A DNA stretch of 64,000 nt from Eledone cirrhosa (Eukaryota), in contig OZ024748.1 of the NCBI GenBank assembly GCA_964016885.1, positions 21,266,001 through 21,330,000 of the forward strand, read 5' to 3'. The notes beneath the pieces are model-generated. The model saw only the letters and a program-made list of their open reading frames with translations, made no database searches and was not told the DNA's origin. This document shows, piece by piece, positions 40,888 through 58,454 of this stretch (position 1 is the stretch's first letter; each line of letters begins with the position of its first letter). Made by a program: the position numbers and the translations under genes.

Positions 40888-41028
40888 ATTGTTATACTTT
40901 GGGAGGGTCATGTTGCCAATAATGACCCTCCCAAAGTATAACAACATGACCCTCCCAAAGTATAACAATATCGGTTTCAACACACGATTTCAGATAAAGA
41001 ATCTTGCTAAACAAATTCAGAAACGAAA
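40888..41028 (+). mobile_element. 140-bp minimal fold-back insertion of the 55.6-kb PLE family in (TAA)n
   Basis: Inverted attgttatactttgggagggtcatgttgccaat plus direct atgaccctcccaaag...cagaaacgaa; same two end points as 55595-57751. Confidence 0.9.
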
Positions 41029-41034
41029 TAATAA

Positions 41035-41226
41035 TAATTGTTTCTACTTTAGGCACAAGGCCAGCAATTACCCAGTGCATTACTGGTACTTTATTTCATC
41101 GACCCCGTAAGGATGAAAGGCAAAGCCAACCTCGGCGGGATTTGAACTCAGATCGTAAAGGGACGTAACTATGCTGGAAACTATGCTGGAAAGCATGGCG
41201 TCCGACCCTCTACCGATACTGCCAAT
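41035..41226 (-). mobile_element. SINE S1 copy abutting a Tx1-like fragment
   Basis: Matches 45958-46140, with an internal actatgctgga duplication. Confidence 0.9.
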
Positions 41227-42700
41227 GCACAAGTCAGCAATGCTCGGACACTGGACGAGTGCGTGCAGGACGGTTTCGTCGCCCTGCGCACATCTCGGAC
41301 ATGCCCGGTTGACGGCACCTCCATGCCTGTAGACTTTATCCCGAACTGGCAAAGCTCCTCGGTAGCACTGCCAGGCCAGGGATTTCTGGAAGTTGTCCAT
41401 AGGCCCCGGCCCGAAAGTTCTTCCGAAGAGATTGGCTAGTTGATTTCCCCAAGTACGTCGTCGCTCTTCCCCTCCACTAATCCTCTATAGAACGGCAAGG
41501 TGGAGTTTCCACCGATCACATTGCCCGATTGGTCGAGGGCTGTGAGCGCCTGAAGACATTCCAGTCTCCAAGCGCTCGCTCTTGGTCTTCTCTTGACCCA
41601 GGACTGCAGCTCCGACAAGGAGACGAGCTGGGAAAGACGCGTCTAGCAAACGACAACCACACCTGATCACCGTCGAGGAAGAGGTGGAGATGTAGCCTGA
41701 GCGCGTGTCTGCGCATCATCAGCCACGGCATGCCTAGCCCTCCACGTACCGGGTGTTGACAGCAGATGAACCGCCTGACCATCGGAGCGCGTCCCTTCCA
41801 CAAAAAGCGAAAGAGCAAACGCTCCAGCGCAGTCAGGCGGGGCTTAGGACAAGGTACGACGGTCAGGCGGTAGTAGATGACGGACGCGATGTACGCGTTA
41901 GCCACCTCCGCTCGACCTTTCAGGGATAGCTTCCTCTCCGCCCATTTCTGGGTAAGAGAAGCCACCCTGCTCGTCACCTCGTCCCAGTTTTTGTCCGTCT
42001 GGAGGTCCGGACCGAACCAGACCCCTAGCAATTTAACCGGTCCGTCCGTCTAGCGCCCGACGACGCTGTTGGACGGCATGGACCTGCCTCTCCAGGTGCC
42101 GAGCTGCAGGATAATAATAATAATAATAATAATAATGGTTTCTTATATAGGCACAAGGCCATCAATTTGGGGGGGAGGGAAAAGTCGATTAAATTGTGCG
42201 TGACTGGTACTTTATTTTATCGACCCCGTAAAGAAGAAGAAGAAGAAGAAGAAGAAGAAGAAGAAGAAGAAGAAGAAGAAGAAGAAGAAGAAGAAGAAGA
42301 AGAAGAAGAAGAAGAAGAAGAAGACAGCATGCACTTGCCTCTCCAGGTGCTGAGCTGCAAGCCCACAGACTTTTCCGGATTAAGTTTCGCTCCTGTCTAC
42401 CTTTCGTATTCCTCCAATAAGGTGCCGACCACCTCGATTTCCGAGGTGTCCGACACCATCACGGTGATGTCGCCCGCATAAGCCGACACATCCTTTCTAC
42501 GTCCCGGTAGTCATTAACCTTGACCACCGAACAGATGCCGCTGTGCATTGCAGCGATCCAGCTTCTGAAGACGGGGCCGAAGCCAGCTGCCTTGAAGACC
42601 ATCTCCAGGTACCGATGGTCGACCCTATCGAATGCTTTCGATTGATCTAAATTGATCAGAGCCCCACCGAAGCCAGGTTTACACTCTACTCTCTCTATGA
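41227..42700 (-). mobile_element. Fragmented Tx1/L1-type ORF2 (41227-42110 and 42324-42700) interrupted by (TAA)n, a SINE piece and (GAA)n
   Basis: LGVWFGPDL..W..RKLSLKGRA..GGLGMP; CPRC..ETVLHALVQCP zinc knuckle; LINLDQSKAFDRVDH motif; catalytic motif reads YAGD. Confidence 0.9.
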
Positions 42701-42741
42701 CAACAACAACGACAACGACAACAGTAACAACATTATTCCGA

Positions 42742-55916: not shown

Positions 55917-57281
55917 AGAGAACTGAAGAAAATGATTGCACATGCGGTAGGGGCCAGCATAAAATTAACCCTTAAGGAACATATGTTCAAATTTAATGGT
56001 AAAACATATGCCCAAGAGGAAGGAGCAGCCATTGGTGTTAGCATTGCAGGCAACATAGCTAACTTATTCATGGTATGGTGGGACAGTAGACTTAAACAAA
56101 AACTTAATGAACAATTAGAAGACAGCTTAACCCTGATAATGTACTCCCGCTACGTAGATGATATAAACATCGTAGTTAAGACACCCCCACTAAAGAACAG
56201 TCAGGAACTAGAGAAAAACACAATGGAAAGCATCCAGCAAATAGCAAACTCCATCCACCAGAGCATTAGAGTTACTATAGACTACCCAAGTAGACACCCC
56301 AACCATCGATTACCTGTACTAGACACAGAGCTCTGGTTAGATACCATTAACAACCAAAAACAAATCCTCCATTCCCATTATGCCAAACCCATGACTTCCA
56401 AACATCTGATCCACCGAAACTCGGCCATTTCGGACCATACCAAAATCAACATACTGATTGCGGATTTGGTACGGGTGATGAGAAATGTGTCCCGCATGTG
56501 CAACCCCGAAGAACTAGAGAGACACATACAACACTTCATCCACCGTATGCAGTTCTCTGGCTACAATCAGAGAGATAGAATCAGAGTGTATAAAGGAGCC
56601 AGAACCAAATGGGAAAAAATGGTAAATAATGACATAAATGGGACCTGCCCCTTGTATAGGAGCAAATTTTGGAATAGAATAGAAAGAACTAGGAACAAGG
56701 CCAATAGAATAAACTCATGGTATGATAGCAATAAATACCAGAGTGTAATGTTCATCAATACAACCCCTAGAGGCGAACTAGCCTACAAATTTAGAAGGGC
56801 CCTAAATAAACATAATCTCAATATTAAGATAGTAGAAAGACCTGGTACCTCCGTAAAAACACTTATTAGCAAGACATACCCGTTCCAAAGACCCTCATGT
56901 ATAGATAAGAAATGTATAACCTGTAAAATAAGCCCCCATATTAACTGTAAAACTAGAAATGTAGTGTATAGCATAAGATGTACTGAAGGACAATGTAGAA
57001 ACAAAAATATAGTGTACATAGGTGAGACAGCTCGTAGTATAGGGGAACGAATAAATGAACACTGGCGAGACCTCCAAGATAATAAAGAATCATCTGTGCT
57101 CTACCAACATGCTAAGATAGAACACAGGGGTAGATTAGAGAGCATAGAAATAAAAATAGAATCCACGCACAGAAAAGACGCAATGTTTAGGAAAATTACA
57201 GAGGCAGTAAGCATAAAAGAATTTAAACCAAAATTAAATAGAAAATATGAGTGGAACAGCAACATCACAACTTACAATTAA
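55917..57281 (+). CDS. PLE polyprotein, N-terminally truncated: RT (motifs 4-7, thumb) plus C-terminal GIY-YIG endonuclease with Cys/His motifs
   Basis: FKFNGKTYAQEEGAAIG..ANLFM..WD, RYVDD, LPVLD, CxxC linker, VVY..C..C..YIGETARSIGERINEH..H...H, E..I...KPKLN. The first ~29 codons of ORF 55830.. are read from the inverted pLTR and are not genuine. Confidence 0.92.
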   Translation, partial: RELKKMIAHAVGASIKLTLKEHMFKFNGKTYAQEEGAAIGVSIAGNIANLFMVWWDSRLKQKLNEQLEDSLTLIMYSRYVDDINIVVKTPPLKNSQELEKNTMESIQQIANSIHQSIRVTIDYPSRHPNHRLPVLDTELWLDTINNQKQILHSHYAKPMTSKHLIHRNSAISDHTKINILIADLVRVMRNVSRMCNPEELERHIQHFIHRMQFSGYNQRDRIRVYKGARTKWEKMVNNDINGTCPLYRSKFWNRIERTRNKANRINSWYDSNKYQSVMFINTTPRGELAYKFRRALNKHNLNIKIVERPGTSVKTLISKTYPFQRPSCIDKKCITCKISPHINCKTRNVVYSIRCTEGQCRNKNIVYIGETARSIGERINEHWRDLQDNKESSVLYQHAKIEHRGRLESIEIKIESTHRKDAMFRKITEAVSIKEFKPKLNRKYEWNSNITTYN

Positions 57282-57481
57282 GGACAAAATGAAAACACAC
57301 ACACACATAGAACAAACAACCAACCAACAATAAATAAATAAACAAATAGAAAAATGAACACAAACACACACAGACACCCGGATGTGGCACATGCGCAAAC
57401 TGAGCACACAACACACACACAGAAACAAAATGGCGTAGGATAGAAGAAAGAAAAGGCACAGAAACGAAGAAAGGAATCCCC

Positions 57482-57526
57482 AGTCACTGAAGAGGTCACA
57501 GAGTGTGTGACGAAAGGACTATGACT
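57482..57526 (+). ncRNA. Minimal hammerhead ribozyme motif in pLTR (mirror copy at 55763-55807, minus strand)
   Basis: AGTCA-CTGAAGA-G-GTCACA-gagtg-TGTGAC-GAAA-ggac-TA-TGACT. Confidence 0.75.
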
Positions 57527-58454
57527 ATATATATAAACAACTATCTGGTTGTGGAACCAACCAACCAACCAGAAATTTATAGGTTTGTAGATTTGTAAAT
57601 TTATAAATTTATAAATATATAATAAATTGAAGTGAAAGCAACTGGTGCGTGTGTTTCTTATTGGCAGCATGACCCTCCCAAAGTATAGCAATATCGGTTT
57701 CAACACACGATTTCAGATAAAGAATCTTGCTAAACAAATTCAGAAACGAAATATATATATATATATATATATATATATATATATATATATATATATATAT
57801 ATATATATATATATGTGTGTGTGTGTGTGTGTGTGTGTGTGTGTGTGTGTGTGTCCCATTCACCACCTTCCCCTACCACCAGAAAACATATAAATACCAC
57901 CATATCACAATGACAGTTGGTTTTCCTGATGATTTCATTCGAGACAGTCTAGTCCTGTAGAAGCCATTTCTCTCCCCTCTCTCTCTCTTTCTTTCTCTCT
58001 CTCTCTCTCTATATATATATATATATATATATGTATATATATATAATATAAGATCAAAAGATGGTTAAAAGAGCTCCATGTATTTTATTATGCGCATTTC
58101 AAAAACAAATATCATCATGGGATGATATTTGCGTTCTCATCAGATAAAATAGGGAGACATAATATGAAGCTTAAAAAACACTTGCGAGCAGTGAAGTGTT
58201 AAATCAACATATGAAAAATAAAATAAGATAGATATATGAGATTGGGAAAAAAGAGAAGGAAGGGGCAAGAAAAAAAAAATATATATATATATATTTTTTT
58301 TTTATATATATATATGTATATATATATAGGAACGAGTAGGACCCCGAGGGCTGAGCTCAAGCCGTTTCGACGGCTAATTCTGGACTACTAGTATATATAT
58401 ATGTATATATGAATATATATATATATATATATATATATATATATATATATATAC

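What the first reader, a model, noticed from the sequence alone, without database searches (positions are those of the whole stretch)
40888..57751. Two insertions of the same PLE, 2.16 kb and 140 bp, have identical outer end points, suggesting two fixed priming sites
Seen: both 55595-57751 and 40888-41028 begin with inverted attg(c/t)tatactttgggagggtcat and end with direct ...cagaaacgaa(ata); only the inner junction differs. One lies in (TA)n, the other in (TAA)n. Both end points sit at short AT-rich motifs that could pair with the target. Inference: both strands of the cut target prime reverse transcription at two defined template positions about 57 nt apart (twin-priming-like), and the converging cDNAs are joined wherever they stop. 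This would explain all fold-backs here, including tail-less solo arms (58046, 58328) and tail-only pieces (29021, 11186, 32454).
Basis: partly seen in the sequence, partly recalled or inferred. Interest (0 to 1): 0.75.

Follow-up and report, generated by a model that had tools for sequence, protein, structure and literature searches.

The report
Twin-primed Penelope insertions, paired start sites
Both pieces are copies of a very abundant Penelope-like jumping gene whose insertions almost always end at two fixed points 60 bases apart, one at each end, likely because each cut DNA strand starts copying the element's RNA at its own start site; the two start sites are already known from a relative, but the one-of-each rule makes the insertion mechanism directly testable.

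Summary
Observation confirmed, with corrections. Both copies belong to a C-terminal GIY-YIG Penelope-like (Neptune-type) family with over 28,000 ends in this 3-Gb genome. Of 100 arms anchored ~200 nt upstream, 84 end exactly at two sites and 96 within 9 nt. The sites are 60 nt apart (not 57) and are the only two AATATCG words in the 4,423-nt unit. Head-to-head insertions pair one arm of each type (74 of 76). The tail-less arm is the longer one in 32 of 74 pairs, which a fold-back cannot build. Paired arms share subfamily variants (70% vs 18% shuffled). Twin priming from both target strands is likely. Two start sites, a one-sided tail and both-strand extension are published (Frangieh 2024; Craig 2021); I found no paper linking them to the inverted arm, but this scan reported the same reading on at least 19 genomes. 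Corrections: inner ends pile up at -250..-225 (likely the RNA 5' end); the 140-bp copy has three pieces; the five other pieces named belong to four other families.

The parts
55595..55916 (-). Long copy, tail-less (site S) arm; outer end at family position +26, inner end about -290 (ATG = +1)
55920..57754 (+). Long copy, tailed (site T) arm: 5'-truncated ORF, 3' region/pLTR and tail; 98% identical in the ORF to an intact genomic unit (L128)
55920..57281 (+). C-terminal third of the ORF: RT motifs (GAAIG...YVDD), thumb, CX4CX2C linker, GIY-YIG nuclease with two Cys between the motif halves
   Evidence: intact copy
57427..57435 (+). AAAATGGCG, a YY1-like motif (reverse complement holds GCCAT) at -232 of the reference; inner ends pile up at and just upstream of it; inferred transcript start
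   Evidence: sequence; motif core from PMC11602158 passages
57482..57526 (+). Minimal type-I hammerhead motif (CUGAAGA, 6-bp stem II, GAAA, 2-nt loop III, predicted cut after 57521); read by eye, not found by Rfam
   Evidence: sequence; column counts; Rfam negative
57669..57754 (+). First 28 codons of the next ORF unit; codons 9-28 form the 60-nt tail
   Evidence: read-through copies
57690..57696 (+). Site S, AATAT|CG
57750..57754 (+). Site T, AATAT (|CG in read-through copies), followed by target (TA)n
40888..40922 (-). Short copy, site S arm (+24 to -11), in an (AAT)n target
40922..40944 (+). Short copy, extra direct piece (+1 to about +22) ending at site S; likely slippage or re-priming through a 4-nt AACA homology
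   Evidence: mechanism inferred
40942..41030 (+). Short copy, site T arm (-4 to +85)
58046..58250 (-). Other family C: solo arm stopping at the first of two family ends (about 90 nt apart); not this element
58326..58392 (-). Other family B: solo arm stopping at the first of two family ends (77 nt apart); not this element
29021..29185 (+). Other family E: arm running to the second family end; includes sequence upstream of the first end, so not tail-only
32452..32524 (-). Other family D: piece between a hammerhead motif (present in longer copies) and one fixed end; second copy at 11186-11260

Best explanation
These are ordinary insertions of an endonuclease-bearing Penelope-like retrotransposon whose two arms end at two fixed sites, one of each per insertion, likely because both strands of the cut target prime reverse transcription, one at site T and one at site S, probably on the same RNA. 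Shown here: two fixed outer ends 60 nt apart inside the ORF start; one-of-each pairing; arms that are not nested; arms sharing subfamily variants; microsatellite targets. Shown in a relative in vitro (PMC11167929): nicking and extension of both strands and two internal start sites that delimit the tail. Inferred: staggered nicks in (TA)n or (AAT)n give two 3'-OH ends; the protein (predicted dimer in the relative, untested here) presents the RNA's two AAUAU|CG sites to them with only 2-5 nt of pairing; both cDNAs run 5'-ward, the T cDNA passing through site S, which on one RNA needs strand displacement; they stop at random or at the RNA 5' end near -240; host end joining links them head to head. 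If only one strand primes, a solo arm of either type results.
For: Outer ends of 100 arms anchored ~200 nt upstream: 46 at +26, 38 at +86, 96 within 9 nt of one site. Genome counts 15,034 S ends, 12,945 T ends, 481 read-throughs. Pairing: 74 S+T, 1 T+T, 1 S+S; by coordinates alone 39 S+T, 3 T+T (two are read-through junctions), 1 S+S. S arm reaches more than 20 nt further 5' in 32 of 74 pairs, T arm in 22, similar in 20. Full-length units end at either site. A 20.8-kb head-to-head insertion with over two units per arm is still S+T. Common variants shared by partner arms: 129 of 185 (70%) versus 18% mean, 30% maximum in 200 shuffles. The long window copy carries a G found in 33 of 13,095 and 66 of 15,100 arms, in both arms. 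Pairs with one arm at the -240 pile-up and the other beyond -255: 2 seen, 8.3 expected, p=0.004 (test chosen after seeing the data). The (AAT)n copy ends at the same sites, so ends are not inherited with a donor (UA)n tail. Junctions blunt or within 5 nt in 48 of 74.
Against: All evidence is from finished insertions; no intermediate was seen. Exceptions exist: S+S in L280 and on contig C1526, T+T in L248. Two of 35 pairs with 6 or more shared informative columns have arms of different haplotype blocks (L023, L230). Rare variants are almost all one-armed (145 versus 8 shared) with no A>G excess, so single-molecule use is not shown. Variant sharing could also come from one locus being active at a time or from later arm-to-arm conversion. 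69 of 74 T arms run past site S, so a single RNA must be read twice. Target-site duplications are barely resolvable in (TA)n: 7 of 74 informative versus shuffled mean 1.1, maximum 5. Frangieh 2024 saw no difference in start site between top and bottom strand in bulk. About 39 of 92 sampled chains look one-armed.
Confidence: 0.72

Rival explanations
1. Dual priming: both target strands prime, but on two RNA molecules (usually from one locus) held by an asymmetric dimer, one read from S and one from T.
For: Avoids strand displacement (69 of 74 T arms overlap the S arm); 2 of 35 pairs are haplotype-discordant; few shared rare variants. Proposed for L1 in PMC2837659 section 11.
Against: Two separate RNAs give no natural reason for 74 of 76 one-of-each pairing or for both arms sharing the same 5' limit; most pairs share one of several coexisting haplotypes.
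Confidence: 0.17
2. One priming event, then fold-back or self-priming copies the first cDNA; the nuclease resolves the intermediate and leaves the tail on one side (self-priming in PMC3846280; EN-mediated resolution in PMC8557442).
For: 20 of 74 pairs have nearly equal inner ends and 22 have the S arm nested in the T arm, as in the long window copy. Shared variants are expected.
Against: In 32 of 74 pairs each arm holds sequence the other lacks. Solo and full-length arms end at S without any partner. A fold-back strand would pass better TA homologies at -136..-125 and -58 yet still ends at +26 in the 32 pairs whose arms both pass -140. Equal inner ends cluster at the -240 pile-up.
Confidence: 0.07
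3. The end points are not chosen by the protein but inherited: donors that end at S|(TA)n or T|(TA)n make RNAs whose (UA)n run pairs with the target.
For: Nearly all ends abut (TA)n, and AATAT blends into it.
Against: The short window copy ends at both sites in (AAT)n with no TA run. A T-ended RNA holds S only internally and an S-ended RNA lacks the terminal T site, so every S+T pair needs one internal start. In vitro start sites are internal (PMC11167929).
Confidence: 0.04

Closest known systems
Poseidon PLE of Anolis carolinensis in vitro (Frangieh et al. 2024, PMC11167929; parts 1-2 of 4 read plus term passages, supplements not read)
   Same: Two RT start sites inside the ORF start that delimit the genomic tail; both target strands nicked and extended; AT-rich targets; hammerhead in the pLTR; tandem organisation.
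   Different: Spacing here is 60 nt (tail given there as 30-40); both sites here share AATATCG with 2-5 nt possible target homology, where that paper reports no homology; the paper's main text does not tie the two sites to the inverted arm or test per-insertion pairing.
EN+ PLE insertion layout: partial tandem, inverted 5'-truncated pLTR, one-sided tail (Arkhipova 2013, PMC3846280; Craig 2021, PMC8557442; passages read)
   Same: Identical anatomy, pLTR includes the ORF start, tail often at one end only, (TA)n targeting, Asn-rich insert in the ORF as in Adineta.
   Different: Those papers explain the inversion by self-priming on an antisense template or the tail by EN-mediated resolution; the non-nested arms here argue against both as the general route.
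L1 twin priming and the proposed dual priming (PMC2837659; passages and section 11 read)
   Same: Two cDNAs primed from the two nicked strands, joined head to head with little homology.
   Different: In L1 the first primer uses the poly(A) tail, the second anneals at a variable internal site and the fragments flank an internal deletion. Here both sites are fixed and internal, and the arms overlap in template, so the product is an inverted duplication, and it is the routine outcome.

Membership tests
EN+ Penelope-like elements (C-terminal GIY-YIG) | Single ORF with RT followed by GIY-YIG | tested here: met
   1,318-aa ORF in L128; RVT_1 E=8.7e-5 (below Pfam's cut-off), GIY-YIG E=2.7e-5 (above cut-off) on parts; the whole protein gave no Pfam hit
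EN+ Penelope-like elements (C-terminal GIY-YIG) | CCHH motif with two Cys between GIY and YIG | tested here: met
   read from the translation against the description in PMC8557442
EN+ Penelope-like elements (C-terminal GIY-YIG) | Tandem or partial-tandem units forming pLTRs that include the ORF start | tested here: met
EN+ Penelope-like elements (C-terminal GIY-YIG) | Inverted 5'-truncated copy and optional one-sided tail | tested here: met
   tail 60 nt rather than 30-40
EN+ Penelope-like elements (C-terminal GIY-YIG) | Minimal hammerhead in the pLTR | tested here: inconclusive
   core and stems read by eye at 57482-57526; cut-site base is A, T or C in 88 of 88 arms; no Rfam hammerhead hit; cleavage not tested
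EN+ Penelope-like elements (C-terminal GIY-YIG) | RT groups with PLE/telomerase RTs in a tree | not tested
Neptune clade | CX2-5CxxC linker before GIY-YIG (Neptune, Nematis; absent in Penelope/Poseidon) | tested here: met
   CX4CX2C in the translation; definition from PMC8557442
Neptune clade | Phylogenetic placement with Neptune rather than Nematis | not tested
   no named references; 'Neptune-type' rests on domain layout only
L1-type twin priming | Both nicked strands prime cDNA | not testable with these tools
   inferred; shown in vitro for a relative
L1-type twin priming | Second primer at a variable internal site; fragments flank an internal deletion | tested here: not met
   second site fixed; 69 of 74 T arms overlap the S arm
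L1-type twin priming | Target-site duplication around the whole unit | tested here: inconclusive
   7 of 74 informative duplications of 7-31 nt versus shuffled mean 1.1, maximum 5

The most novel reading that the evidence does not exclude
Twin priming is the standard integration route of EN+ PLEs: one RNP holds a single RNA at two AAUAUCG sites 60 nt apart in two RT active sites, assigns one to each nicked strand, and copies the same RNA twice by strand displacement, over 8 kb per arm on multimeric transcripts. Tail length would then be a ruler of the distance between the two active sites, family by family (60, 77, about 90 and 38-46 nt in four families of this window).
Probability: 0.45. Interest if true: 0.7.

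Novelty: new member of a known kind. Interest (0 to 1): 0.42.

Why it matters
How PLEs, the sister group of telomerase RTs, make their inverted repeats and one-sided tail is an open question (stated in PMC8557442 and PMC11167929). The one-of-each rule, the non-nested arms and the shared haplotypes turn the published in vitro facts into one testable model, and this family offers a clean handle: the same 7-mer marks both sites and occurs nowhere else in the unit. The anatomy and the two start sites are known, and this scan has reached the same reading many times, so this window adds a strong quantitative case, not a new kind of system.

Tried and rejected
1) An apparent allele split (G in tailed arms, A in tail-less arms) was query bias: genome counts are A 13,062 and 15,034, G 33 and 66. 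2) Inner ends at the hammerhead cut (-138): no peak, 6 of 148 within -148..-128. 3) A>G excess among shared rare variants as a sign of RNA editing on one molecule: not seen, 2 of 8. 4) A special RNA fold around the two sites: z = -0.96. 5) Rfam: no hammerhead or other real family. 6) RNA data: no RNA holder listed, so the transcript start is untested. 7) Automatic extent and inverted-repeat calling for families B-E was swamped by microsatellites and replaced by motif counts; tblastn links of B-E to a PLE ORF were single hits not shown to be contiguous, so their PLE status rests on layout and hammerhead-like motifs. 8) Protein Atlas gave no result. 9) No dimer prediction was run: all 150 N-terminal relatives found were 91-100% identical, too shallow for an alignment. 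10) Deletion derivative or segmental duplication: rejected.
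Full report
Observation. The window is G000:C8:21266001-21330000 of a 3-Gb genome. The long copy spans 55595-57754. Its left 322 nt are the reverse complement of 57373-57694 with one mismatch; the rest is a 5'-truncated RT plus GIY-YIG frame, a 3' region and a tail. The short copy spans 40888-41030 and has the same two outer ends. It sits in (AAT)n, shares no flank with the long copy and has A where the long copy has G at 57688. 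It has three pieces: inverted arm, a ~22-nt direct piece ending at the first site, and the tailed arm.

What the element is. An intact genomic unit (L128) is 4,423 nt with a 1,318-aa ORF: Asn-rich insert, RT (Pfam RVT_1 E=8.7e-5, below cut-off), CX4CX2C linker and GIY-YIG (E=2.7e-5, above cut-off). This is the C-terminal EN+ PLE layout; the linker points to Neptune or Nematis (PMC8557442 passages); no tree was made. Copies that read through show that the tail is codons 9-28 of the next ORF. With ATG = +1 (window 57669), site S ends at +26 and site T at +86, 60 nt apart. AATATCG occurs only at these two places per unit, while AATAT occurs 12 times.

I took the first 100 listed matches (of 15,454) of a 24-mer about 200 nt upstream of S, all on contig C1, fetched them and mapped arm ends. 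46 end at +26, 38 at +86, 96 lie within 9 nt of one site, and four end elsewhere (-76, -75, -54, -27). BLAST ends include the AATAT homology with the target, so the true start lies within those 5 nt; the (AAT)n copy limits the possible pairing to 2-4 nt. Exact patterns give 15,034 ends at S, 13,062 arms passing S, 12,945 ends at T and 481 read-throughs.

Pairing. Coordinates alone (84 + 100 listed matches in the first 35 Mb of C1) gave 43 head-to-head pairs within 6 kb: 39 S+T, 3 T+T of which two are internal read-through junctions, and 1 S+S. Among the 92 chains: 38 S+T, 1 S+S, 12 with a partner lacking a recognised end, 39 apparently one-armed (21 T, 18 S) and 2 other; at least four of these (L221, L256, L264, L267) had a small or decayed T partner beside an S arm, and L248 holds a T+T pair. 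Pooling loci L001-L290 and the two window copies, keeping only adjacent opposed arms with both ends at S or T, gave 74 S+T, 1 T+T, 1 S+S. Some of these loci were chosen by one arm's type, which does not fix the partner's. Multi-unit insertions follow: a 20.8-kb and a 10-kb one are S+T, a 17.8-kb one on a small contig is S+S.

Independent synthesis. In 32 of 74 pairs the tail-less arm reaches over 20 nt further 5' than the tailed arm, so each arm holds sequence that the other lacks; in 22 the tailed arm is longer; 20 are similar. Full-length units end at S or at T. A single cDNA folding back cannot give the first class.

Same template. Partner arms share common variants in 129 of 185 cases (70%; shuffled mean 18%, maximum 30%). 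The most discordant column is a CpG (13 discordant, 0 shared), and 2 of 35 pairs differ by a haplotype block. The long window copy is the only one of 33 G-bearing tailed arms whose partner appears in the G-bearing tail-less list. Rare variants are mostly one-armed (145 versus 8), so same locus is supported and same molecule is not proved.

Inner breakpoints. Mostly dispersed from +65 to beyond -4,000, but 26 of 148 fall in -250..-225 (24 of 103), at and just upstream of AAAATGGCG (-232). Human L1 has a YY1 site at nt 9-20 that sets its start (PMC11602158 passages), so I infer run-off at the RNA 5' end; no RNA data were available. There is no peak at the predicted hammerhead cut (-138). When one arm stops at the pile-up, the partner passes -255 in 2 pairs against 8.3 expected (p=0.004, post hoc), which suggests both arms read the same junction. 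Junctions are blunt in 8, overlap 1-5 nt in 17, have 1-5 extra nt in 23 and are longer in 26 of 74.

Other pieces. None matches this element. Each is a high-copy family. In query-biased samples of 25-30 loci, B (58328) has two ends 77 nt apart with 16 of 17 head-to-head pairs one-of-each; C (58046) has ends about 90 nt apart, read by eye as one-of-each in L323, L330, L331 and L334; E (29021) has ends 38-46 nt apart, 6 of 6; D (11186, 32454) showed one end only. So the logic extends to B, C and E, not to 'the same PLE', and the tail-only label fails for 29021 and is untested for D.

Mechanism. Most likely both nicked strands prime, one at T and one at S, probably on one RNA; the cDNAs stop at random or at the RNA 5' end and are end-joined (0.72). 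Rivals: two RNAs (0.17), fold-back or resolution (0.07), inherited ends (0.04). Priming, dimer, strand displacement and the transcript start are inferred.

Known and new. Frangieh 2024 (PMC11167929; parts 1-2 of 4 and term passages; supplements not seen) shows two internal start sites equal to the tail, both strands cut and extended, and a predicted dimer. Arkhipova 2013 and Craig 2021 (passages) describe the inverted pLTR and one-sided tail and propose self-priming or EN resolution. PMC2837659 (passages and section 11) describes L1 twin and dual priming. PMC4209133 (passages) describes minimal PLE hammerheads; bioRxiv 10.64898/2026.07.22.740005 (passages) added nothing on ends. Five searches (listings only beyond the papers named) found no paper stating twin priming or a one-of-each rule for PLEs; subscription journals, including early Penelope papers, are not covered. 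This scan's notes hold 79 similar findings in at least 19 genomes, including this one; I formed the reading and the pairing count before the first look-up, and the notes are not independent support.

Verdict. Real, well supported, and a clean quantitative case, but a new member of a known kind. Interest 0.42.

Noticed in passing
G000:C4:116262093-116282940 (L426-L428): 20.8-kb head-to-head insertion with more than two full units in each arm, ending S and T; implies multimeric (or circular) template RNA. A six-unit direct array lies on C6 (L433-L436).
   Followed up: partly
L128:2953-6906, residues about 250-480: Long Asn/Thr/His-rich insert in the ORF, variable in length among intact copies, like the N-rich inserts of Adineta Penelope elements.
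   Followed up: no
L114 (G000:C1:132947049-132947576): Tandem array of at least 12 copies of a 46-nt unit spanning site T; reiterative copying or later satellite expansion.
   Followed up: no
L221, L244, L248, L260, L270, L289: Many ~30-nt site-S stubs (inner ends -3 to -10) in TA runs beside larger copies, at least one with a ~17-nt tail-only partner: minimal twin-primed products.
   Followed up: partly
window 11186-11260, 32452-32524; L346-L370: Family D: longer copies hold a canonical-looking hammerhead; many short copies, including both window pieces, begin in the C-run just after its predicted cut.
   Followed up: partly
window 29021-29185; L382-L393: Family E occurs as tandem repeats of about 620-645 nt with a hammerhead-like core, resembling non-autonomous retrozyme arrays.
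   Followed up: no
L240: S+T insertion whose flanks repeat a unique stretch on both sides of the TA runs, suggesting a long target duplication.
   Followed up: no
window 24257-25040 and 58564-59015: Two further fold-backs (380-nt arms, 99%; about 220-nt arms) unrelated to this element by BLAST of the second; families not identified.
   Followed up: no
window 48185-50825 (-), 41516-42049 (-), 60516-61013 (+): Fragments of non-LTR retrotransposon RT frames, judged by eye from translations.
   Followed up: no
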